A DNA stretch of 64,000 nt from Sporichthyaceae bacterium (GCA_031365725.1 JANLYQ010000010.1:50238-114237), one strand, 5' to 3'. Positions 25,402 to 54,491 are shown, numbered from the stretch's first letter. The notes: generated from the letters alone by a model not told the origin. Made by a program: numbers and translations.

Positions 25402-28400
25402 GTGCACCTGAAGAGCCTCACCCTCAAGGGCTTCAAGTCCTTCGCGTCGGCCACCACGTTCCACTTCGAGCCGGGCATCACGGCCGTGGTCGGACCCAAC
25501 GGGTCCGGCAAGTCCAACGTCGTCGACGCCCTCGCCTGGGTGATGGGGGAGCAAGGCGCCAAGACGCTGCGCGGGGGCAAGATGGAGGACGTCATCTTCG
25601 CCGGCACCAGCGGCCGCGACGGTGCCGCCGGGCGCGCACCACTGGGTCGGGCCGAGGTCAGCCTCACCATCGACAACTCCGACGGTGCCCTGCCGATCGA
25701 CTATGCCGAGGTCACCATCTCGCGGATCATGTTCCGCAACGGCGGCTCGGAGTACTCCATCAACGGCACCGGCTGCCGGCTGCTGGACGTCCAGGAGCTG
25801 CTGTCGGACTCCGGCATCGGCCGCGAGATGCATGTGATCGTCGGCCAGGGCCAGCTCGACGCCGTGCTGTCGGCCGGCCCCGAGGAGCGACGCGGCTTCA
25901 TCGAGGAGGCAGCAGGGGTCCTCAAGCACCGCAAGCGCAAGGAGAAGGCGCTGCGCAAGCTGGACGCGATGCAGGGCAACCTCACCCGGGTGCAGGACCT
26001 CACGGTCGAGCTGCGTCGCCAGCTCAAGCCGCTCGGTCGCCAGGCCGAGGTCGCTCGGCGCGCTGCCGTCGTCCAGTCCGACCTGCGCGACTCGCGGCTG
26101 CGGCTGCTCGCCGACGACCTCGTGGCACTCAGCGTCACCCTCGAGGCGGAGGTCGCTGACGAGACCGCGCTGCGTGCCCGCCGGGCCGAGGTCGAGGCCG
26201 AGCTCGCGACTGCCATCGAGCGGGAGACCGCCCTGGAGCAGAGCTCTGCGGCCGAGGCGCCCGCACTGACCCGGGCCCAGGAAACCTGGTACCGGTTGTC
26301 CTCGCTGCGAGAGCGCTTCCGGGGCACCGGCAGCCTTGCCGCCGAACGGGTGCGGCACCTCGCTGAGGCCGTCGAGGGCGCGCAGAGCGCGCCCGGCCGC
26401 GACCCGGCCGAGCTTGCCGCCGAGGCCGGCCGGGTGCGGGCCGACGAGGCCGAGATCGAGGCCGCGGTCGAGCGGGACCGGGCCGCACTGGCCGACGCCG
26501 TGACGGCCCGCCAGCAGGCCGAGGCCGAGCTCGCCGACGAGCAGAAGCGCCTGGCTGCGGCCGCGCGAGCCGCGGCGGACCGACGTGAGGGACTGGCCCG
26601 CCTGGCCGGCCAGGTCGCCGCCCGCCGCAGTCGGGTCGAGGCCGCGGAGGCGGAGATCGGTCGCCTCAGCCCGGCCCGAGAGGAAGCCCGGGCCCGCGCC
26701 GCCCGCGCCCAGTCCGAGTTCACCGCCATCGAGACCCAGGTGGCCGGGCTCGATGCCGGCGAGGAGGACCTCGACGCCGTGCACGAGGAGGCCGCGTTGC
26801 GCCTCGCGGCCGCCGACGACCGGGTGGCCGTGTTGCGCGAGGAGGAGCGGGTCGCCGACCAGGAGCGCGCCGCCTTGGTCGCTCGCAAGGACGCCCTCGA
26901 GATCGGCCTCGCCCGCAAGGACGGGGCCGGCACCGTGCTCGCCGCCGGAGACCGCCTCTCCGGTGTGCTCGGGTCGGTCGCCGCCCTGCTCACCGTCGAG
27001 AGCGGCTTCGAGACTGCGGTGGCGGCCGCTCTCGGGCCGGTGGCCGATGCGGTCGCGGTCGGTGACCTTGGCGCTGCCCAGCGGGCGATCATGTTGCTCA
27101 AGGACGACGACGCCGGTCGGGTGGGCATGCTCGTCGGCGCTGAGGCTCCTCGGTCCCCGGCGTACACCGGTGGGAATGACGTACCTCCCTCGCTGCCCGC
27201 AGGCTGTCGGGCCGCGACCGAGGTGGTCACTGCGCCGGCGGCACTGCAGGCGGCGGTGGCGCTGCTGCTGGCCGATGTCGTGGTCGTGCCTGACCTCACC
27301 ACGGCGCGACGGCTCGTGCAGGACCACCCCCAGCTCGTGGCAGTCACCACCGAGGGCGACCTGCTCGGGGTCGACCGGGCGGCCGGCGGTTCGGCCAGCA
27401 CGCCCAGCCTCCTCGAGGTGCAGGCGGCCGTCGACGAGGCGGCGGGCCGCTTGGTCGAGGCGGGGCACCGGCTCGAGCGGGCGAGATTCGGCCTGGGGTC
27501 GGCGAGTCAGGAGCAGGACACCGCACACCGTGACGTGCAGGTGGCCCTCGACCGACTGCACGAGTCCGACGCACGGATGGCCGCCGTCGCCGAGCAGCTG
27601 GGTCAGCTCGGTGCGCAAGCCCGGTCGGCACGCGGCGAGGCCGACCGCCTCGACCGTTCGATCGCGCTGGCCACCGAGGCGCGCGACACCGACAGCACCG
27701 CCCTCGGCGAGCTGGAGGAGCGGCTCGCCCTCGCCGCCCGGACCGGCCCCGACGGCCTGGCCGATGGCGCCGAGGGTGCCGAGCCCGACTCCGCGGTCCG
27801 AGACCAGCTCGAGGAGGCATCGCGTTCGGCCCGCCAGGCCGAGGTCGAGCACCGCCTCGCTGTGCGCACCGGTGAGGAGCGCGTCCGCGCCCTGGCCGGT
27901 CGGGCCGACCAGCTGACCCAAGCTGCCGAGCAGGAGCGCCGTGCCCGCCAGCAGCAGGCGGCGCGCCGTGAGGCGCAGGTCCGGGAGGCAGCGGTGGCCC
28001 GCCAGGTGGCGCTCGCCGCGCAGGCCGCGCTCGCTCACCTGGAGCACTCCCTGGCCTTGGCCGCCCAGGTGCGCGAGGAGGCCGAGCGGGCCCGCGCCGA
28101 GCGTGACGCCGAGACGACGGCGCTGCGCAGCCGGCTGCGTGAGCTCGGCGGCGAGCTCGACCGGCTGACCGACAGCGTCCACCGCGACGAGGTGGCCCGG
28201 GCCGAGCAGCGGCTGCGCATCGAGGCCCTGCAGATGAAGGCGCTGGACGACCACGGGGTGGAGCCTGTCGCACTCGTGGAGGAGTACGGCCCGCACGTCC
28301 TCGTGCCGCCCTCCCCCCTGGCGCCGGAGGAGGTGCGTGAGGTCGAGCCGGAGCCGACGACGTTCGTGCGCGTCGAGCAGGAGAAGCGGATGCGCTCCGC

Positions 28401-29028
28401 CGAGCGGGCGCTGGCGCTGCTGGGTCGGGTCAACCCGCTGGCGCTGGAGGAATTCCAGGCCCTCGAGGAGCGCCACCAGTTCCTCGCCGAGCAGCTCGAG
28501 GACCTCAAGGCCACCCGGCGCGACCTGATGGACATCGTGCGCGAGGTCGACGAGCGGGTCGAGCAGGTCTTCACCGCTGCCTTCCATGACACCGCCCGGG
28601 AGTTCGAGGGCGTCTTCGCCCGGTTGTTCCCCGGTGGCGAGGGGCGGCTGGTCCTCACCGATCCCGGTGACATGCTCGCCACCGGCATCGAGGTCGAGGC
28701 CCGGCCGCCGGGGAAGAAGGTCAAACGGCTGTCGCTGCTCTCCGGCGGGGAGCGGTCCCTGACCGCGGTGGCCCTGCTGGTCGCGATCTTCAAGGCCCGG
28801 CCGAGCCCGTTCTACGTCATGGACGAGGTGGAGGCGGCTCTCGACGACACGAACCTCGGCCGGCTCATCGCGATCATGGAGGAGCTGCGGGAGGCCAGCC
28901 AGCTGATCGTGATCACCCACCAGAAGCGCACCATGGAGGTCGCCGACGCCCTCTACGGCGTGTCGATGCGTGGCGACGGCATCACGACCGTCATCGGTCA
29001 GCGGCTGCGGGAGCCCGAGCCGGTCTGA
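25402..29028 (+). CDS. smc: Chromosome segregation protein SMC
   Basis: 1208 aa. N-terminal Walker A (GPNGSGKSN), long coiled coils, hinge, and C-terminal signature/Walker B (LSGGERSLTAVALL...YVMDEVEAALD). Confidence 0.95.
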   Translation: MHLKSLTLKGFKSFASATTFHFEPGITAVVGPNGSGKSNVVDALAWVMGEQGAKTLRGGKMEDVIFAGTSGRDGAAGRAPLGRAEVSLTIDNSDGALPIDYAEVTISRIMFRNGGSEYSINGTGCRLLDVQELLSDSGIGREMHVIVGQGQLDAVLSAGPEERRGFIEEAAGVLKHRKRKEKALRKLDAMQGNLTRVQDLTVELRRQLKPLGRQAEVARRAAVVQSDLRDSRLRLLADDLVALSVTLEAEVADETALRARRAEVEAELATAIERETALEQSSAAEAPALTRAQETWYRLSSLRERFRGTGSLAAERVRHLAEAVEGAQSAPGRDPAELAAEAGRVRADEAEIEAAVERDRAALADAVTARQQAEAELADEQKRLAAAARAAADRREGLARLAGQVAARRSRVEAAEAEIGRLSPAREEARARAARAQSEFTAIETQVAGLDAGEEDLDAVHEEAALRLAAADDRVAVLREEERVADQERAALVARKDALEIGLARKDGAGTVLAAGDRLSGVLGSVAALLTVESGFETAVAAALGPVADAVAVGDLGAAQRAIMLLKDDDAGRVGMLVGAEAPRSPAYTGGNDVPPSLPAGCRAATEVVTAPAALQAAVALLLADVVVVPDLTTARRLVQDHPQLVAVTTEGDLLGVDRAAGGSASTPSLLEVQAAVDEAAGRLVEAGHRLERARFGLGSASQEQDTAHRDVQVALDRLHESDARMAAVAEQLGQLGAQARSARGEADRLDRSIALATEARDTDSTALGELEERLALAARTGPDGLADGAEGAEPDSAVRDQLEEASRSARQAEVEHRLAVRTGEERVRALAGRADQLTQAAEQERRARQQQAARREAQVREAAVARQVALAAQAALAHLEHSLALAAQVREEAERARAERDAETTALRSRLRELGGELDRLTDSVHRDEVARAEQRLRIEALQMKALDDHGVEPVALVEEYGPHVLVPPSPLAPEEVREVEPEPTTFVRVEQEKRMRSAERALALLGRVNPLALEEFQALEERHQFLAEQLEDLKATRRDLMDIVREVDERVEQVFTAAFHDTAREFEGVFARLFPGGEGRLVLTDPGDMLATGIEVEARPPGKKVKRLSLLSGGERSLTAVALLVAIFKARPSPFYVMDEVEAALDDTNLGRLIAIMEELREASQLIVITHQKRTMEVADALYGVSMRGDGITTVIGQRLREPEPV

Positions 29029-29168
29029 GCCGGCGACGCCTTCCGGGCTTACCGTCGTACGTCGCCCGACGGTCACGTGATCTCGCTCACCCCGTGGGCG
29101 TGGCGCCACGCCGAGGCGCCCGCGCAGGACCGGCGTACGGCCGGACTGTGGCTACCGTGGAGGGGGTG

Positions 29169-29459
29169 ATGACCATCATCGTTTTCCAGCTGGCAATGGG
29201 TCTCGTCGCCCTGCTCGTCGTGGGTGTCGTGGCCGTCCTCTACCGCGGCCGCCAGATGGCCGAGTCCGGCCGGCTGCCTGCCGCACCGATGCACAAGCTC
29301 TCCGACACCATGACGGCGATGGCCGGCAAGGTCCTCCCCGGCGACGCTCCGCCGCTCGGCGTGCTCACCAGCCCGGAGAAGTCCCGGGCGATGTCGGCCC
29401 GCTTCGAGCGCGCCGAGACCAGCGTCCGTCGCCTGGTCGGCACCGCGCCCCGACCCTGA
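29169..29459 (+). CDS. Hypothetical small membrane protein
   Basis: ATG with RBS ggaggggg. One TM helix (TIIVFQLAMGLVALLVVGVVAVLY). Confidence 0.4.
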   Translation: MTIIVFQLAMGLVALLVVGVVAVLYRGRQMAESGRLPAAPMHKLSDTMTAMAGKVLPGDAPPLGVLTSPEKSRAMSARFERAETSVRRLVGTAPRP

Positions 29460-29529
29460 CTGATCCGGCGGGCTGGCCGAGCTGAGCGTCGCGTCGACGA
29501 CGTGGTCCTGCGGCGGAACTCTGCGCCCC

Positions 29530-29618
29530 GTACCCACGAACACACAGAAGCCGCTGATTCAGGTTCTGCTGAGCGTGCACCCAGCGGCCCGTCCCCACTT
29601 CTGTGTGCTCGCCGGTAC
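29530..29618. repeat. GTAC-bounded ~90-bp palindromic element, copy 1
   Basis: 21-bp imperfect terminal inverted repeats gtacccacgaacacacagaag ... cttctgtgtgctcgccggtac (perfect 10-bp core cacacagaag/cttctgtgtg) around a 47-nt interior containing gagcgtgc. Confidence 0.6.
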
Positions 29619-29750
29619 ATCGAGCCCGCCGAGGCCGACGAGGCCGACCCGCTGATCTTCGCCCTCTCGCACGCGGACCAGCTCCCCGAGTGGCGGAACC
29701 TGGCTGCTCGCCCCCATCCAGCGGCGGAAGGTGGTCGTCGGCAGCGTCGA

Positions 29751-29840
29751 GCGGCGACCAGGTTCCGCCACTCGTCGACCGCGACGACCAGGTTCGGCCA
29801 CTCGTCGGCCGCGACGACCACGGGCCGCCAGTTGCGGTGT
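29751..29840. repeat. 3 x 30-bp tandem direct repeat (third unit degenerate), plus an upstream inverted 16-mer at ~29688-29703
   Basis: Units gcggcgaccaggttccgccactcgtcgacc / gcgacgaccaggttcggccactcgtcggcc / gcgacgaccacgggccgccagttgcggtgt. gagtggcggaacctgg at 29688-29703 is the exact reverse complement of ccaggttccgccactc in unit 1. Confidence 0.5.
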
Positions 29841-29865
29841 CCGTGTGGCGGGCGGAGTGATGGGC

Positions 29866-29955
29866 GTACCCACGAACACACAGAAGCAGCGGTTCCGGGT
29901 CCTGTTGAGCGTGCGCCCCGGCGGCTCGTCCCCGCTTCTGTGTGTTCGTCGGTAC
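29866..29955. repeat. GTAC-bounded ~90-bp palindromic element, copy 2
   Basis: gtacccacgaacacacagaag ... cttctgtgtgttcgtcggtac with one TIR mismatch. Interior has ctgttgagcgtgcgccccggcgg, homologous to copy 1. Confidence 0.6.
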
Positions 29956-30034
29956 AGCCGCCGTTCCCTTCGACGTCGTGTCCGGCTCAACGAGCGGGGC
30001 AGCGAAGGCCGTCGGTTGACCTGAGAGACTGCCC

Positions 30035-31192
30035 GTGATGGCCACTCTCACTCTTGTCCTCGTCCTTGCCGTGCTGGGCCTGCTCGTCCTTGTCGGTGGC
30101 GGCATCGGCCTCTACCGCGGCACGCGGCGGCGGGGGAGCAACCGGCTCGGCACCGGCACGCTGACCGGGCCCGACCTGACTCCGGCGGAGACCAGCGGTC
30201 CTGACGGCAGCACCGGCGCTGGCACCGTCGTCGACGATGGCCCGCGCACCGAGACCCCGACGCCCGTCGCCGGCCGGATGGGACGGCTGCGCGCTCGCCT
30301 CGGCCGGTCCCAGGGCTCGCTCGGCCGCGGCCTGCTCGGCCTGCTCTCCCGCGACACCCTCGACGAGGAGACGTGGGAGGAGGTCGAGGACGTCCTGCTC
30401 ACCGCTGACGTCGGTGTCGGTCCGACCCAGGAGCTCGTCGGTCGGCTGCGCACCCGGGTCCGCGAGATCGGCACCCGCGACCCGGCCAGCGTCCGCCCCC
30501 TGCTCCGCGAGGAGCTGCTGAGCCTGGTAGGCGTCGACAGCGACCGCTCCCTGCGCACCACGGGGACCGAGGGTCGCCCAGCGGTGGTCCTCGTGGTCGG
30601 AGTGAACGGCACCGGCAAGACGACCACGGTCGGCAAGCTGGCCCGCGTGCTGGTCGCCGACGGGCGCACCGTGCTCCTCGGTGCTGCCGACACGTTTCGC
30701 GCGGCTGCCGCTGACCAGCTGGCCACCTGGGGCGAGCGGGTCGGAGCCCCCGTCGTCCGCGGGCCGGAGGGCGGCGATCCCGCCAGCGTGGCCTTCGACG
30801 CCGTCAAGCAGGGCGGCGAAGGCGGCTACGACGTGGTGCTGGTCGACACCGCCGGCCGGCTGCAGAACAAGGTCGGGCTGATGGACGAGCTCGGCAAGGT
30901 CAAGCGCGTCGTGGAGAAACACGGACCGGTCGATGAGGTGCTGCTCGTCCTCGACGCGACAACGGGCCAGAACGGCTTGGTCCAGGCGCGCGTCTTCGCC
31001 GAGGTCGTCGATGTCACCGGCATCGTGCTGACCAAGCTGGACGGCACCGCTAGGGGCGGCATCGTCGTGGCCGTCCAGCGCGAGCTCGGGGTGCCGGTCA
31101 AGCTCGTGGGTCTCGGCGAGGGCGCCGATGACTTGGCACCCTTCGACCCTGAGGTCTTCGTCGACGCCCTGCTGGACGTCGACCCGAGCTGA
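30035..31192 (+). CDS. ftsY: Signal recognition particle-docking protein FtsY
   Basis: N-terminal membrane anchor, acidic linker, NG domain with GVNGTGKTTT, DTAGR, TKLDG motifs. Confidence 0.9.
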   Translation: MMATLTLVLVLAVLGLLVLVGGGIGLYRGTRRRGSNRLGTGTLTGPDLTPAETSGPDGSTGAGTVVDDGPRTETPTPVAGRMGRLRARLGRSQGSLGRGLLGLLSRDTLDEETWEEVEDVLLTADVGVGPTQELVGRLRTRVREIGTRDPASVRPLLREELLSLVGVDSDRSLRTTGTEGRPAVVLVVGVNGTGKTTTVGKLARVLVADGRTVLLGAADTFRAAAADQLATWGERVGAPVVRGPEGGDPASVAFDAVKQGGEGGYDVVLVDTAGRLQNKVGLMDELGKVKRVVEKHGPVDEVLLVLDATTGQNGLVQARVFAEVVDVTGIVLTKLDGTARGGIVVAVQRELGVPVKLVGLGEGADDLAPFDPEVFVDALLDVDPS

Positions 31193-51030: not shown

Positions 51031-52269
51031 GTGCCTGCTGAGCCCACGACATCCGCAGTCCCCGACCTTTCGCAGGGCCGCGGTGACCGACCGGCGACGG
51101 CGCAGGAGCCGAACCCGTTCTGGGGTCCCGACTGGCCCGAGGTCCGGGAGCTGTGGCCGCTGGAGCCGACCGTGGCCCACCTCAACCACGGATCCTTCGG
51201 AGCGGTCCCGCGGTCGGTGCTCGAGGAGCAACAGTCCTGGCGGGACCGGATGGAGGTCAACCCGGTCCGGTTCTTCCGCCGCGAGCTTGCCGCCGCGCTG
51301 AGCACGGCCCGCGGTGAAGTCGCGGATTCCTTCGGTGCGCAGGAGGAGTCGCTCGCTTTCGTGTCCAACGCCACCAGTGGCGCGGGCACCGTGCTGGCGT
51401 CGTTCCCGATCGAGGCCGGCGACCGGGTCCTGCTCACTGACCACAGCTATGGCGCGGTAGCCATCGCTGCGCAACGGTTCGTGCCCGAGCGCGGCGGCGT
51501 CCTCGACACAGTGGCCGTCCCGCTGGCGGCTGATGACGCGGAGGTTGTTGAGCGGGTGCTCGCGGCGGTGGTCGACCGGACCCGGCTGGTGGTGTTGGAC
51601 CACATCACCTCACCGACTGCTCGGCGGCTCCCAGTGGAGCAGCTCATCCCGGCCTTGCAGGACCGCGACATCGCCGTGCTGGTCGACGGCGCCCATGCGC
51701 CGGGCATGATCGAGGTTCGGCTCGACGATCTCGGGGCGGACTTCTACGTCGGGAACCTGCACAAATGGGTTTGCGCCCCGCGGGGCACGGCGGTGCTGCA
51801 CGTCGCTCCGCGGTGGCGATCGCGGGTGCGTCCGCTCGTGGCGTCGTGGGGCGAGGCTGACGGCTTCCCCGCCGCCTTCGACGAGACCGGAACTGAAGAC
51901 GCGACCGCATGGCTGTCGGCGCCGCGCGCGCTACGTGCCCTGCAGCACCTCGGGCTGGAGCGCCTGCGGGCGCACAACGTGGCCCTTGTCGGTTGGGGGC
52001 AGCGGCTGGTCGCGAATGCGCTCGGGCTCAGCCCTGCTGACCTGTCGGTCCCGACCTCGCTGAGCATGGCGCTGGTGCCGCTGCCGGCAGGAGTGGCCAG
52101 CTCGACGGAGTCCGCACTGGCGTTGCAGACTCGACTGGGCGAGGAGTCGTCGGTCGAGGTGACGGTGGTCAGCTGGGGTGGGCAGGGTCTGCTGCGCGTG
52201 TCGGCCCAGGCCTACAACTGTCCGGGCGACTTCCACCGCCTCGCCGACGAACTGCCCGCCCTGCTCTGA
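51031..52269 (+). CDS. Aminotransferase class V-fold PLP-dependent enzyme (cysteine desulfurase / isopenicillin-N epimerase-like)
   Basis: 412 aa, GTG start. Motifs HLNHGSFGAVP, VLDHITSPTA, NLHKW (PLP-Lys). Confidence 0.75.
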   Translation: MPAEPTTSAVPDLSQGRGDRPATAQEPNPFWGPDWPEVRELWPLEPTVAHLNHGSFGAVPRSVLEEQQSWRDRMEVNPVRFFRRELAAALSTARGEVADSFGAQEESLAFVSNATSGAGTVLASFPIEAGDRVLLTDHSYGAVAIAAQRFVPERGGVLDTVAVPLAADDAEVVERVLAAVVDRTRLVVLDHITSPTARRLPVEQLIPALQDRDIAVLVDGAHAPGMIEVRLDDLGADFYVGNLHKWVCAPRGTAVLHVAPRWRSRVRPLVASWGEADGFPAAFDETGTEDATAWLSAPRALRALQHLGLERLRAHNVALVGWGQRLVANALGLSPADLSVPTSLSMALVPLPAGVASSTESALALQTRLGEESSVEVTVVSWGGQGLLRVSAQAYNCPGDFHRLADELPALL

Positions 52270-52318: not shown

Positions 52319-52408
52319 GTACCAACCAACACACAGAAGCTGCCATCTGGTTGTCTCTGCACGCTCGTGGAGCCACGTCAGCGCCGGCTTCTGTGTGTCC
52401 GCCGGTAC
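52319..52408. repeat. GTAC-bounded ~90-bp palindromic element, copy 3 (inverted orientation relative to copies 1-2)
   Basis: gtaccaaccaacacacagaag ... cttctgtgtgtccgccggtac. Interior carries gcacgctc, the reverse complement of gagcgtgc. Lies in the convergent intergenic between the aminotransferase and the M23 peptidase. Confidence 0.6.
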
Positions 52409-52435
52409 GCGGGCTGCCCAGTGACGGCCCGAGGG

Positions 52436-52483
52436 CCCGGGGCCGGGGGCCGGGGGCCGGGGGCCGGGGGCCGGGGGCCGGGG
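52436..52483. repeat. (CCGGGGG)n heptanucleotide microsatellite, ~7 units; G-quadruplex / i-motif-forming potential
   Basis: cccggggccgggggccgggggccgggggccgggggccgggggccgggg. Followed at ~52487-52504 by the perfect 18-bp palindrome gcgttaccgaggtaacgc. Confidence 0.8.
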
Positions 52484-52593
52484 AAAGCGTTACCGAGGTA
52501 ACGCCCCCTGGGGACAATCTCCGGTGCGTGGTCGGGTCCGGTGGCGCGACTCCGCCCGGCGTGCTAACCGGGTCCGTGCCCGGCTCGGGCGGC

Positions 52594-53199
52594 TCACCAG
52601 ACGGGAAGCAGGCGCACGTGGACCCGGCCGCCCACCAGGGTCAGGGGGTCGAGGTACGTCTCGCCCCGGCGAAGCCCCCAGTGCAGGCAGGCCGCAGGCG
52701 CGCAGTGGCTCGCGACCGCCTCCAGGGTGCCGAGGGCGTGGCCGGCGACGACCCGATCACCGCGACGCACGATGGTCAGCACCGGTTCGTAGGTCGTGCG
52801 CAGCCCGCCGGGGTGTTCGACGCTGACCACCCCTCGCCCGGCCACCACTCCGGCGAAGGTCACGACGCCGGGACCGGCGGCGAGCACGAGGAAGCCGACC
52901 TGGCTGGCCAGGTCGACGCCGCGGTGCCCCGGCGCGAACGGCCCGGCTGGTGGCTGAAACCTCGTCACCACCATGGGCGGCGGGTCCAGCGGCCACTGCC
53001 ATGACCCACCGATGCCGATGCCGGTGGTGCCACTCGCACGGGTTCGGGGAGTGGGCGCAGTGACCGGGTCGGTCGCCGGTGCGGCCAGGGCGAGCACGAG
53101 GGGTACGACGGCAGCGAGGCGGTTGACCGCCCCGGTGACTCGTTGGCCTGGACCTGGGCGGCGAGGCCGGCGCTGGCGGAGGGCGAGGTCGAGGTGCAT
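52594..53199 (-). CDS. M23 family metallopeptidase (Rv2891-like), secreted
   Basis: N-terminal signal/TM (LAAVVPLVLALAAPA). C-terminal LytM-type motifs (HRGVDLA ... HLHWG-like CLHWGLRRGETYLDP). Divergent from rpsB as in mycobacteria. Start taken at ATG 53199. Confidence 0.6.
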   Translation of the reverse strand: MHLDLALRQRRPRRPGPGQRVTGAVNRLAAVVPLVLALAAPATDPVTAPTPRTRASGTTGIGIGGSWQWPLDPPPMVVTRFQPPAGPFAPGHRGVDLASQVGFLVLAAGPGVVTFAGVVAGRGVVSVEHPGGLRTTYEPVLTIVRRGDRVVAGHALGTLEAVASHCAPAACLHWGLRRGETYLDPLTLVGGRVHVRLLPVW

Positions 53200-53558
53200 A
53201 CAGCCAACCTGGCGCCGCGCAACCCCTTCGGACTGCCCGGACGCGAAGATGTGGACAACCTCGGCCACCTGGAGGCTGTGGATTTCCAGCGCCGTTGCCC
53301 ACCGACGTACACTCGGCGCAGCGTCCCGCCTCGGCGGGGCGACTTCGCACGCCCGCACACCGCCATCGACCGGCAGCAGCCGGTCACCGACGGGGGCGCG
53401 CTCACCGGTCCGCCCGACCCGCGATGGCGACGGCGGCGAGCGCACTCGCAGGCGTCAGGACGTGGACGGCCGCCCGGCCGCCCGCGAGGCAACCGATAGC
53501 GCACGTGCCCGTTCGCCCCGGCGAGCCATGAGAGGCAGGTGCAGAGACGAGAACTCAG

Positions 53559-54491
53559 ATGGCCGGCACCACCCAGGTCGTCTCGATGAAGCAGCTGCTC
53601 GAGAGCGGCGTGCACTTCGGACACCAGACCCGCCGTTGGAACCCGAAGATGAAGCGATTCTTCTTCACCGAGCGCAACGGCATCTACATCATCGACCTCC
53701 AGCAGTCGCTGTCCTACATCGACCGCGCGTACGAGTTCGTCAAGGAGACCGTTGCGCACGGCGGCTCGGTGATGTTCATCGGCACCAAGAAGCAGGCCCA
53801 GGAGGCGATCGCCGAGCAGGCGACCCGCGTCGGCATGCCCTACGTGAACCAGCGCTGGCTGGGCGGCATGCTCACGAACTTCCAGACCGTGCACGGTCGC
53901 CTGCAGCGCCTCAAGGAGCTCGAGCAGCTCGACTTCGACGACGTGGCCGGCTCGGGCATGACCAAGAAGGAGCTGCTCGTCCTGCGTCGCGAGAAGGACA
54001 AGCTCGCCAAGACCCTCGGCGGTATCCGCGACATGTCCCGCGTCCCGAGTGCGGTCTGGATCATTGACACCAAGAAGGAGCACATCGCCGTCGGCGAGGC
54101 CCACAAGCTCCGCATCCCGGTGGTCGCGATCCTCGACACCAACTGTGACCCGGACGAGGTCGACTACAAGATCCCCGGCAACGACGACGCGATCCGCTCC
54201 GTCACGCTGCTCACCCGGGTGATCGCCGACGCGGTCGCCGACGGCCTCATGGCTCGCGTGCGCACGTCCCAGGACGGGGACGAGAAGCCGGGTACGGACG
54301 GACAGCTGGCCGTCGACGAGCCGCTTGCGGCCTGGGAGCAGGAGCTGCTCCAGGGCAGCGCTGCTCCGGTGGCTGAGGCTCCGGTGGCTGAGGCTCCGGT
54401 GGCTGAGGCTCCGGTGGCTGAGGCTCCGGTGGCTGAGGCTCCGGCGGCTGAGGCACCGGCGGCCGAGCCCAGCCCCACCCCGGCCAGCTGA
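53559..54491 (+). CDS. rpsB: 30S ribosomal protein S2 with a C-terminal (APVAE)n repeat tail
   Basis: [22 protein letters not shown] core. The tail is encoded by 15-nt tandem repeats gctccggtggctgag at ~54362-54465. Confidence 0.9.

What the first reader, a model, noticed from the sequence alone, without database searches (positions are those of the whole stretch)
29460..30034. 575-bp non-coding repeat island inserted between smc and ftsY
smc and ftsY are normally adjacent in this conserved operon region. Here they are separated by a small membrane-protein ORF plus a block made entirely of nested repeats: palindromic element copy 1; a 16-bp inverted repeat gagtggcggaacctgg (29688-29703) pairing with ccaggttccgccactc inside a 3 x 30-bp tandem array (29751-29840); then palindromic element copy 2. 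The only ORFs in the block (e.g. 29502..30038, 178 aa) are read-throughs of the repeats with no protein-like composition. The architecture (IR element, structured spacer, IR element) could be a composite mobile element scar, a long structured ncRNA or leader controlling ftsY, or a hotspot for repeated MITE insertion.
Basis: seen in the sequence. Interest (0 to 1): 0.55.

Follow-up and report, generated by a model that had tools for sequence, protein, structure and literature searches.

The report
Hairpin-repeat insertion between smc and ftsY
About 540 bp of non-coding DNA made of small self-complementary repeats sits just upstream of ftsY in one uncultured actinobacterial lineage; this is an ordinary pile-up of MITE-like repeats, although the repeat family has not been described before.

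Summary
Window 29460-30034 contains two copies (29530-29618, 29866-29955; 84% identical) of an 89-90-bp palindromic element with 21-22-bp terminal inverted repeats. A third copy lies at 52319-52408. Between the first two copies lie a 9-bp tandem repeat, an 88-bp hairpin with perfect 17-bp arms, and a 30-bp tandem array.

Comparison with relatives shows the block is an insertion. The small membrane-protein gene is conserved, and in the nearest MAGs its stop lies only 40-80 bp from ftsY. A sister lineage (L093) has copy 2 and the spacer but not copy 1, and one 30-bp unit fewer. Another relative (L002) carries unrelated palindromes in the same spacers.

There is no coding signature, no protein homologue, no Rfam match and no covariation. 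A conserved extended -10-like motif (TGnnAnACT) lies 6-10 nt before the ftsY start in several families. ftsY therefore probably has its own promoter downstream of the island, which argues against a structured leader.

Best reading: a hotspot that has collected a lineage-restricted, MITE-like hairpin repeat plus slippage and inverted-duplication debris. It may terminate or insulate smc-operon transcription. This is a new member of a known kind, of modest interest.

The parts
25402..29028 (+). smc, the upstream gene of the locus
   Evidence: Pfam SMC_N 4.9e-69 and SMC_hinge 1.4e-21. The exact 1208-aa product is in the public collection on a 177,782-bp NCBI contig.
29169..29459 (+). Conserved small gene (96 aa, N-terminal hydrophobic segment, no Pfam family). 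The island begins after its stop codon.
   Evidence: GC1/2/3 is 0.71/0.53/0.90. It has 102 homologues at E<=1e-3. It is present between smc and ftsY in L001, L002, L003, L009 and L013. The exact 96-aa product is on record.
29480..30020 (.). Lineage-specific insertion, the core of the 29460-30034 island. It takes the place of about 9 bp in the nearest MAG, L001.
   Evidence: blastn aligns window 29400-29479 to L001 5702-5774 and window 30021-30100 to L001 5784-5864. GC content (0.69-0.72) is no different from the flanks.
29530..29618 (+). Palindromic element, copy 1 (89 bp, 21-bp terminal inverted repeats)
   Evidence: covariance model R1 scores 101.5 bits. It is present at the same site in the independent metagenome contigs L096 and L097. 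It is absent from sister lineage L093.
29621..29648 (.). 9-bp tandem repeat CGAGGCCGA, 3.1 copies
   Evidence: TRF. This stretch has no counterpart in L093.
29687..29774 (.). 88-bp hairpin with perfect 17-bp arms (29687-29703 / 29758-29774), built from roughly 30-nt units that carry GGCGGAA(C)
   Evidence: Fold z-scores are -3.7 (+ strand) and -4.4 (- strand). All three GGCGGAA heptamers on the + strand of the window lie in the island. The L093 orthologue has arms matching only 15/17, with z -1.8 and -2.1.
29751..29840 (.). 30-bp tandem array: 2.3 good units (29751-29820) plus a degenerate third unit. Its copy number differs from the sister lineage.
   Evidence: TRF gives 92% matches. L093 lacks one 30-bp unit (alignment A3).
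29866..29955 (+). Palindromic element, copy 2 (90 bp, 22-bp terminal inverted repeats, 95% complementary)
   Evidence: R1 scores 101.7 bits. The orthologous copy is at L093 759-847, 78% identical.
30022..30030 (+). TGAGAGACT: extended -10-like motif (TGn + nAnnnT), 8 nt before the ATG of ftsY. It is the probable promoter of a leaderless or short-leader ftsY mRNA (inferred).
   Evidence: It is conserved as CTGnnAnACT, 6-10 nt upstream of the start, in L001, L002, L003, L009, L013 and L095 and in the Microbispora, Nocardiopsis and Microtetraspora loci. It is also present in L093 and L094.
30038..31192 (+). ftsY (an in-frame GTG at 30035 is an alternative start)
   Evidence: Pfam SRP54 1e-72 and SRP54_N 1.1e-13. 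GC3 is 0.90.
52319..52408 (+). Palindromic element, copy 3 (90 bp). It lies between the convergent genes for a class-V aminotransferase (51031-52269, +) and an M23 peptidase (52594-53445, -).
   Evidence: R1 scores 84 bits. An identical copy is in the independent Logan contigs L098 and L099.

Best explanation
The island is non-coding DNA that accumulated in one lineage of uncultured Actinomycetota, in the short spacer between a conserved small membrane-protein gene and the ftsY promoter.

Its two outer blocks are copies of a dispersed 89-90-bp palindromic repeat. The repeat has 21-22-bp terminal inverted repeats (GTACCCACGAACACACAGAAG) and a variable 46-48-nt centre. It behaves like a MITE or hairpin-type small mobile element. 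Copy 2 was already present in the common ancestor with sister lineage L093. Copy 1 was gained later, or was lost in L093.

The 245 bp between the copies is debris from replication slippage and inverted duplication. It holds a 9-bp and a 30-bp tandem array and an 88-bp hairpin built from roughly 30-nt units. This spacer is drifting: its copy number changes and its arms are decaying.

Shown: the anatomy, the indel status, the lack of coding potential, the lack of covariation, and the restricted distribution.

Inferred: (a) mobility of the element by transposition; (b) ftsY is transcribed from its own extended -10 promoter at 30022-30030 as a leaderless or short-leader mRNA, so the island lies outside the ftsY transcript; (c) if the island does anything, its strong hairpins (-43 to -60 kcal/mol) sit in the 3' untranslated tail of the smc/small-gene transcript, where they block or stabilise that transcript and reduce read-through into ftsY.
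For: Repeat reality:
- There are 6 arms against 0.00 expected by chance.
- The three copies, the 17-bp inverted repeat and a 33-nt, 73%-complementary pair inside the island (29723-29755/29797-29829) are among the best-matched inverted repeats in the 64-kb window.

Boundaries:
- Similarity among copies 1, 2, 3 and the L093 copy ends within 1 nt of the GTAC termini.
- Arms are 81-95% identical between copies, while centres are only 53-75% identical.

Insertion status:
- The spacer from the small-gene stop to the ftsY start is about 40-45 bp in L001, L009 and L003, 51 bp in L094, 78 bp in L095, about 75-85 bp in L013, about 255 bp in L002, 455 bp in L093 and 575 bp in the window.
- The flanks align to L001 across a gap of about 541 bp versus 9 bp.

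Gain, loss and drift:
- L093 has copy 2 and the spacer (87% identity) but no copy 1, one 30-bp unit fewer, and inverted-repeat arms at 15/17.
- The same-species contigs L096 and L097 carry copy 1.

Hotspot:
- L002 carries unrelated palindromes in both spacers.

Non-coding:
- GC3 is 0.66-0.80, there is no Pfam hit, and there are 0 hits in 1.84e9 representative proteins.

Not a known RNA:
-.

No covariation:
- 15 of 22 stem pairs are invariant and none is compensatory.

Structure:
- The island folds with z = -3.6 (+ strand) and -4.7 (- strand).
- Single copies fold at -43 to -60 kcal/mol.

ftsY signal:
- A conserved TGnnAnACT lies 6-10 nt before the start codon in several families.
Against: - No target-site duplication can be shown outside the terminal GTAC.
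- No clean empty site is available, because the L093 sequence at the position of copy 1 does not align.
- No transposase gene or longer element with the same ends is in the window.
- Only four independent copies are known. The element core was not found in 185,579 representative genomes, JGI metagenomes or viral contigs, so there is no family-level evidence for mobility.
- There is no U-tract after either copy, so a terminator role would have to work without a U-tract.
- Local 3-base periodicity at 29580-29730 (+ strand) and 29730-29850 (- strand) leaves open that part of the spacer is a decayed coding fragment.
- No transcript data exist. The promoter assignment rests on motif conservation only, and the motif could partly be a ribosome-binding signal.
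Confidence: 0.65

Rival explanations
1. The island is, or encodes, a structured RNA. It could be a long 5' leader that controls ftsY, or a small RNA carried in the smc-ftsY spacer.
For: The island folds strongly on both strands (z = -3.6 and -4.7). In the window copies the A.C mismatches of the + strand become G.U pairs on the - strand, which folds better (-58, -60 and -49 kcal/mol against -43, -56 and -44).
Against: - There are no Rfam matches at gathering score in the window, and only chance-level hits at relaxed E-values.
- Compensatory pairs in the 22-bp stem: 0.
- The G.U asymmetry is reversed in the L093 orthologue (my own pairing of the arms), so no one strand is consistently favoured.
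- The 17-bp inverted repeat loses two pairs in L093 without compensation.
- The whole block is absent from L001, L003, L009, L094 and L095.
- A conserved -10-like motif sits 8 nt from the ftsY ATG, downstream of the island.
Confidence: 0.07
2. The spacer between the two element copies (29619-29865) is the remnant of a gene, or of a gene fragment carried in by a composite element. The inverted repeat and the 30-bp array would then be an inverted, partly duplicated piece of coding sequence (decapeptide units ...DEW(R/P)NLVV...).
For: - There is codon-like periodicity at 29580-29730 on the + strand (one codon phase has GC 0.83-1.00 and another 0.43-0.57).
- The same is seen at 29730-29850 on the - strand (0.83-0.93 against 0.43-0.53).
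- Both orientations read EWRNL.
- The element copies bracket the segment in direct orientation, like a composite element.
Against: - The tandem periods (9 and 30) are multiples of 3, so the periodicity is largely that of a few repeated units and the effective sample is small.
- No parent gene is found in the window or in 100 loci by tblastn.
- The 178-aa read-through ORF has 0 hits among 1.84e9 proteins.
- No gene was called there in L093.
Confidence: 0.15
3. The repeated GGCGGAAC-type units, arranged as inverted arrays, are binding sites for a DNA-binding protein (operator-like or iteron-like) that acts on the smc-ftsY region.
For: All three + strand GGCGGAA heptamers of the 64-kb window lie in the island (29512, 29692, 29723). 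Inverted versions lie at 29763 and 29793. L093 keeps the motif in inverted pairs.
Against: - The motif with up to 3 mismatches is no more frequent in the window than in shuffles (15 found against 15.07 expected).
- The arms decay in L093.
- The region is absent from the nearest MAGs.
- No candidate regulator is encoded next to it.
Confidence: 0.05
4. The arrangement is an assembly artefact: a mis-join at repeats in a metagenome-assembled genome.
For: L096 and L097, two independent assemblies of the same species, both end 7 nt after copy 1. No independent contig spans 29626-29686.
Against: The left part (29460-29625) is reproduced in L096 and L097. The right part (29687-30034) is reproduced by homology in L093. 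Copy 3 is reproduced in L098 and L099.
Confidence: 0.03

Closest known systems
Bacterial MITEs that fold into one long hairpin, such as Correia/NEMIS elements of Neisseria and ERIC/IRU elements of enterobacteria (resemblance recalled from my own knowledge; general definition from PMC11602168 and PMC3184786)
   Same: It is small (89-90 bp), non-coding and intergenic. Its terminal inverted repeats of 21-22 bp are conserved in sequence while the centre varies. Several copies occur per genome, and copy similarity ends exactly at the inverted-repeat ends. Presence differs between close lineages. The whole unit can fold into a stable RNA or DNA hairpin and lies just downstream of genes.
   Different: It shows no sequence similarity to any described element that I could test. 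No target-site duplication is demonstrable: Correia elements have a TA duplication, whereas here only the palindromic GTAC termini are shared. No partner transposase is known. The host is a high-GC uncultured actinobacterium. Only four independent copies have been seen.
REP / REPIN / BIME elements mobilised by RAYT transposases (PMC3733652; REPIN concept from my own knowledge)
   Same: These are extragenic palindromes that cluster, sit between genes, and have been proposed to act in transcription termination and mRNA stabilisation. A REPIN is about 100 nt, made of two inverted units that form a hairpin. A conserved tetranucleotide marks the end.
   Different: REP units are 20-40 bp, are themselves palindromic, and carry GTAG or CGTC tags (PMC3733652). 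Here each 21-nt arm has no internal palindrome and the tag is GTAC. No RAYT gene can be looked for in 64 kb.
Factor-independent terminators without a U-tract, proposed for actinobacteria (my own knowledge; not tested here)
   Same: Copies 1 and 3 are strong GC-containing hairpins lying 70 and 50 nt downstream of stop codons of + strand genes. Copy 3 lies between convergent genes.
   Different: The stems are far longer than ordinary terminators and are conserved in sequence rather than only in pairing. No T-run follows them. There are no 3'-end mapping data.

Membership tests
MITE (non-autonomous DNA transposon) | Terminal inverted repeats of at least 10-15 bp (PMC11602168) | tested here: met
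   The arms are 21-22 nt and 81-95% complementary in all four copies. The arm occurs 6 times in the window against 0.00 expected.
MITE (non-autonomous DNA transposon) | Small size (50-800 bp in prokaryotes) and no transposase or other coding capacity | tested here: met
   The element is 89-90 bp. Read-through ORFs have no coding signature and no homologues.
MITE (non-autonomous DNA transposon) | Several dispersed copies whose similarity ends at the inverted-repeat ends | tested here: met
   Three copies lie at two loci 22 kb apart in the window, and one orthologous copy is in L093. The flanks are unrelated beyond +/-1 nt. The genome-wide copy number is unknown.
MITE (non-autonomous DNA transposon) | Target-site duplication of 2-10 bp flanking each copy | tested here: inconclusive
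   No direct repeat lies outside the GTAC termini at any of the four copies (flanks read). The palindromic GTAC at both ends could be a duplicated target or part of the inverted repeat. The two cannot be told apart without an empty site.
MITE (non-autonomous DNA transposon) | Evidence of mobility: presence/absence at orthologous sites with a recognisable empty site | tested here: inconclusive
   Copy 1 is present in the window, L096 and L097 and absent in L093. However, window 29460-29686 and L093 474-608 do not align, so no clean empty site is seen.
MITE (non-autonomous DNA transposon) | A partner insertion sequence with the same terminal repeats in the genome or its relatives | not testable with these tools
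   No further arm occurs in the 64-kb window. The rest of the 177,782-bp source contig and genome could not be fetched. An exact-core scan of 185,579 genomes gave 0 hits.
REP / REPIN | Unit of 20-40 bp that is itself an imperfect palindrome and carries a GTAG or CGTC tag (PMC3733652) | tested here: not met
   The arm GTACCCACGAACACACAGAAG has no internal self-complementarity and starts with GTAC.
REP / REPIN | A RAYT (Y1 transposase) gene in the same genome | not testable with these tools
   Only 64 kb of the genome is available.
Canonical intrinsic terminator | GC-rich hairpin directly followed by a U-tract | tested here: not met
   The terminator scan of 28900-30200 found no hairpin-plus-T-run at the 3' end of either copy. 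The only hit was a weak 5-pair hit inside copy 2, where 0.3 hits are expected by chance.
Described structured RNA family (Rfam 15) | Match to a covariance model at gathering score | tested here: not met
   There are 0 matches in the whole window. At a relaxed threshold the best E-value was 0.14, to an unrelated microRNA model.
Conserved structured RNA (any family) | Compensatory base changes that keep the helices | tested here: not met
   Of the 22 stem pairs, 15 are invariant, 3 vary on one side, 4 depart only by unpaired cells, and none has a change on both sides. The observed values do not exceed the shuffles. With only 4 sequences, the power of this test is low.

The most novel reading that the evidence does not exclude
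The GTAC-ended 89-90-nt hairpin is the first seen member of an undescribed mobile palindromic-element family of uncultured Actinomycetota. Its copies work as U-tract-less, bidirectional transcription blocks. By landing between the small gene and ftsY, they uncoupled ftsY from read-through of the smc operon and left it dependent on its own leaderless promoter.
Probability: 0.15. Interest if true: 0.45.

Novelty: new member of a known kind. Interest (0 to 1): 0.25.

Why it matters
The finding matters modestly.

- It shows how a tight, conserved gene junction (about 40 bp in the nearest relatives) can grow more than tenfold through small hairpin repeats and slippage without disturbing the start-proximal ftsY signal.
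- It defines a repeat family (covariance model R1; arm GTACCCACGAACACACAGAAG) that annotation pipelines and Rfam do not know. Such repeats break short-read assemblies: two contigs end 7 nt after copy 1.
- The conserved TGnnAnACT motif next to the ftsY start codon predicts a leaderless ftsY mRNA in several actinobacterial families. That prediction is cheap to test in cultured species.
- Nothing here bears on a long-standing open question.

Tried and rejected
Searches that led nowhere:
- An exact-core scan of genome contigs with AACACACAGAAGC..GCTTCTGTGTG gave 0 hits.
- A looser core in metagenome contigs gave 12 hits and in viral contigs gave 1 hit. All were low-GC and unrelated.
- blastn of the element against plasmids and of the island against phages gave only chance hits with E of at least 0.2.
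- I built an artificial protein query that joined all reading frames of the four copies, to catch spurious ORFs called across related elements. There were 8000 candidates and none at E<=1.
- phmmer of the 178-aa read-through ORF against 1.84e9 proteins gave 0 hits.
- The FtsY N-terminal 102 aa, used to fish for contigs that enter the island from the right, gave no hits.
- Exact look-ups of FtsY (three start variants) and RpsB were not on record.
- The 177,782-bp source contig could not be fetched. Look-ups returned only short ENA or Logan contigs, so no genome-wide copy count was possible.

Ideas considered and rejected:
- parS or another SMC-loading site: the arms do not resemble the parS palindrome (from memory, not tested).
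- REPIN: the arms are not palindromic.
- Canonical terminator: no T-run follows the hairpins.
- A canonical terminator in L093 at the position of copy 1: the hairpin-plus-T-run at L093 559-582 looked like one by eye but failed the scan, and its fold is not better than shuffles. I do not claim it.
- The G.U asymmetry as evidence for a minus-strand RNA: it is reversed in L093.

Full report
**1. What is in the sequence.**

The window is high-GC DNA (about 0.70-0.79). On the + strand, smc runs 25402-29028 and ftsY runs 30038-31192, with an in-frame GTG at 30035. Pfam gives SMC_N 4.9e-69 and SRP54 1e-72. Between them lies a 96-aa ORF (29169-29459), followed by 575 bp with no credible gene.

- There are two direct copies of a palindromic unit at 29530-29618 and 29866-29955. 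Their arms are 21-22 nt and 86% and 95% complementary, with 46-47 nt between the arms.
- A perfect 17-nt inverted repeat lies at 29687-29703 / 29758-29774, with a second right arm at 29788-29804 carrying one mismatch.
- A 30-bp tandem array of 2.3 units lies at 29751-29820, and a 9-bp x3.1 tandem at 29621-29648.

The arm GTACCCACGAACACACAGAAG, allowing up to 3 mismatches, occurs six times in the window against 0.00 expected. The extra pair defines a third copy at 52319-52408. In a survey of the whole window, the three copies, the 17-bp inverted repeat and a 33-nt, 73%-complementary pair inside the island (29723-29755/29797-29829) are among the best-matched inverted repeats.

**2. The block is not coding.**

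Real genes here have GC at codon positions 1/2/3 of about 0.8/0.5/0.9. The six ORFs that cross the block have GC3 of 0.66-0.80 and flat profiles. They have no Pfam hit. The 178-aa ORF finds nothing among 1.84 billion representative proteins.

Two short stretches do show 3-base periodicity: 29580-29730 on the + strand and 29730-29850 on the - strand. In both orientations they read EWRNL-type peptides. The tandem periods (9 and 30) are multiples of three, and no parent gene was found. A decayed coding fragment therefore stays a minority possibility.

**3. The small ORF is a real gene.**

It has a gene-like codon profile (0.71/0.53/0.90) and 102 homologues. It lies between smc and ftsY in the five nearest MAGs (45-55% amino-acid identity). 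It has no Pfam family. Its first roughly 25 residues are hydrophobic (read from the sequence).

**4. Comparison with relatives: the island is an insertion.**

The source species is not among the 185,579 representative genomes. The nearest ftsY loci are uncultured Actinomycetota MAGs.

Spacer from the small-gene stop to the ftsY start:

| Locus | Spacer |
|---|---|
| L001, L009, L003 | about 40-45 bp |
| L094 | 51 bp |
| L095 | 78 bp |
| L013 | about 75-85 bp |
| L002 | about 255 bp |

The window's flanks align to L001 on both sides of the block. Window 29400-29479 aligns to L001 5702-5774, and window 30021-30100 to L001 5784-5864. About 541 bp in the window therefore corresponds to 9 bp in L001.

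The closest relative found is L093, a 1.1-kb metagenome contig whose small protein is 91% identical. Its spacer is 455 bp. The alignment shows the following.
- The coding flanks match well.
- The middle segment and the 17-bp inverted-repeat region are orthologous (about 87% identity).
- One 30-bp unit is missing in L093.
- Copy 2 has an orthologue at L093 759-847 (78% identity).
- Copy 1 and the 9-bp array have no counterpart. Window 29460-29686 and L093 474-608 are unalignable.

Two contigs from other samples of the same species (L096, L097) carry copy 1 at the same site with two substitutions in the loop. Both end 7 nt after the element. Copy 3 is reproduced in two Logan assemblies.

L002 carries quite different palindromes in the smc/small-gene spacer and in the small-gene/ftsY spacer. 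These spacers are therefore a recurrent landing or growth site for hairpin repeats in this clade.

**5. Nature of the 89-90-bp element.**

Similarity among the four copies stops within 1 nt of the GTAC termini. The arms are much better conserved (81-95%) than the centres (53-75%). Copies 1, 2 and the L093 copy share one type of centre, and copy 3 has another.

Each copy folds into one long hairpin, at -43 to -60 kcal/mol and z from -2.2 to -6.2. A pair count on the 22-bp stem gives 15 invariant pairs and no compensatory change, and it does not exceed the shuffles. What is conserved is the arm sequence, not just the pairing. That is what is expected for ends recognised by a protein or for recent common descent, not for an RNA selected for its fold.

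In the window copies the + strand mismatches are A.C, which give G.U on the - strand. In L093 the asymmetry is reversed (arms read). No one strand is consistently favoured.

A covariance model built from the four copies (R1) finds no further copy. This covers the window with filters off and 21 relatives' loci. The core is absent from all 80 ftsY loci, from the genome collection as an exact core, and from JGI metagenomes and viral contigs. It is also absent from plasmids and phages and from Rfam. The family is therefore narrowly distributed and undescribed.

Tested against the MITE definition (PMC11602168), the element meets the criteria of terminal inverted repeats, size, non-coding nature, multiple copies and sharp boundaries. 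A target-site duplication, an empty site and a partner transposase could not be shown. Tested against the REP definition of 20-40-bp palindromic units with GTAG or CGTC tags (PMC3733652), it fails.

**6. The spacer between copies.**

It consists of the 9-bp array plus about five units of roughly 30 nt, each carrying GGCGGAA(C)-like cores. Two units are on the + strand (29687-29750) and three are inverted (29751-29840). This arrangement produces the 17-bp perfect inverted repeat and a 33-nt imperfect one.

All three GGCGGAA heptamers on the + strand of the window lie in the island. A 14-nt version with up to 3 mismatches, however, is not enriched in the window (15 found against 15.07 expected).

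In L093 the 17-bp arms have two uncompensated changes. The hairpin's z-score falls from -3.7/-4.4 in the window to -1.8/-2.1 in L093. This looks like neutral decay of a slippage and inverted-duplication product.

**7. Where ftsY expression signals lie.**

Immediately upstream of the ftsY start, every close relative keeps CTGnnAGACTG (window 30021-30031).
- TG, then one base, then a hexamer of the form nAnnnT, matches an extended -10 element.
- The start codon follows 6-10 nt later, and there is no clear Shine-Dalgarno sequence.
- The same arrangement is found in the Microbispora, Nocardiopsis and Microtetraspora loci.

From established knowledge, leaderless mRNAs are common in actinobacteria. 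I infer that ftsY has its own promoter and a leaderless or very short leader. The motif might partly serve as a ribosome-binding signal. Either way, the conserved signal lies downstream of the island and was not disturbed by it. This is the main argument against the 'structured leader' reading.

**8. Likely consequence.**

In the relatives with 40-80-bp spacers, nothing obvious separates the smc/small-gene transcript from ftsY. In the window lineage the same transcript would run into three very stable hairpins, and the whole island folds with z = -3.6. Copy 3 lies 50 nt after the aminotransferase stop, between convergent genes.

A role as a U-tract-less terminator, insulator or 3'-end stabiliser is plausible but untested. 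The consensus terminator scan found no hairpin-plus-T-run at the element ends. The alternative is that the element does nothing and is tolerated.

**9. Verdict.**

The block is a lineage-specific pile-up of a MITE-like hairpin repeat plus slippage debris, upstream of a conserved ftsY promoter. It is a new member of a known kind and of modest interest.

Noticed in passing
window 52429-52483: A 7-bp tandem repeat, CCGGGGG x7.9 (G-runs on the + strand, able to form a G-quadruplex), lies 20 nt after element copy 3, in the convergent spacer between the aminotransferase and M23 peptidase genes. Both independent Logan contigs, L098 and L099, end inside it.
   Followed up: partly
window 52484-52518 and L093 548-585: A roughly 35-nt motif (GAAAGCGTTACCGAGGTAACGCCCCCTGGGGACAA, with a perfect 8-bp-stem hairpin) lies near copy 3 in the window. 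A similar sequence occurs in reverse orientation in L093, about 190 nt upstream of that contig's element copy. A second shared motif therefore sits close to the element at two unrelated loci. It occurs only once in the window. Its folds are not better than shuffles.
   Followed up: partly
window 30021-30031; L001, L002, L003, L009, L013, L093, L094, L095, L010, L018, L024, L026, L028, L031, L033, L050, L053, L060: The motif CTGnnAnACT(G/T) is conserved 6-10 nt upstream of the ftsY start codon across several actinobacterial families. It fits an extended -10 element and predicts a leaderless ftsY mRNA.
   Followed up: partly
L002 4796-5142 and 5540-5617: A related MAG carries its own, unrelated palindromic repeats in the same two spacers. 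One is a 32-nt unit (CTGACCCGCCGTCGTGCGTGCGGGTCAGG) present three times, with one copy inverted. Another is a 59-nt-arm palindrome, and a third is a 33-nt-arm hairpin between the small gene and ftsY.
   Followed up: partly
L096 1456 and L097 1360 (equivalent to window 29625): Two assemblies from different samples both stop at exactly the same base, 7 nt after copy 1 and just before the 9-bp tandem array. This suggests strain-level heterogeneity or a repeat-induced break at that point.
   Followed up: no
window about 54357-54488 (C-terminus of rpsB, 53559-54491): Ribosomal protein S2 ends in a low-complexity tail with five APVAE repeats followed by APAAE units (translation; Pfam Ribosomal_S2 covers only residues 13-229).
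   Followed up: no
window 29512, 29692, 29723: The heptamer GGCGGAA occurs three times on the + strand of the 64-kb window, and all three lie inside the island.
   Followed up: partly
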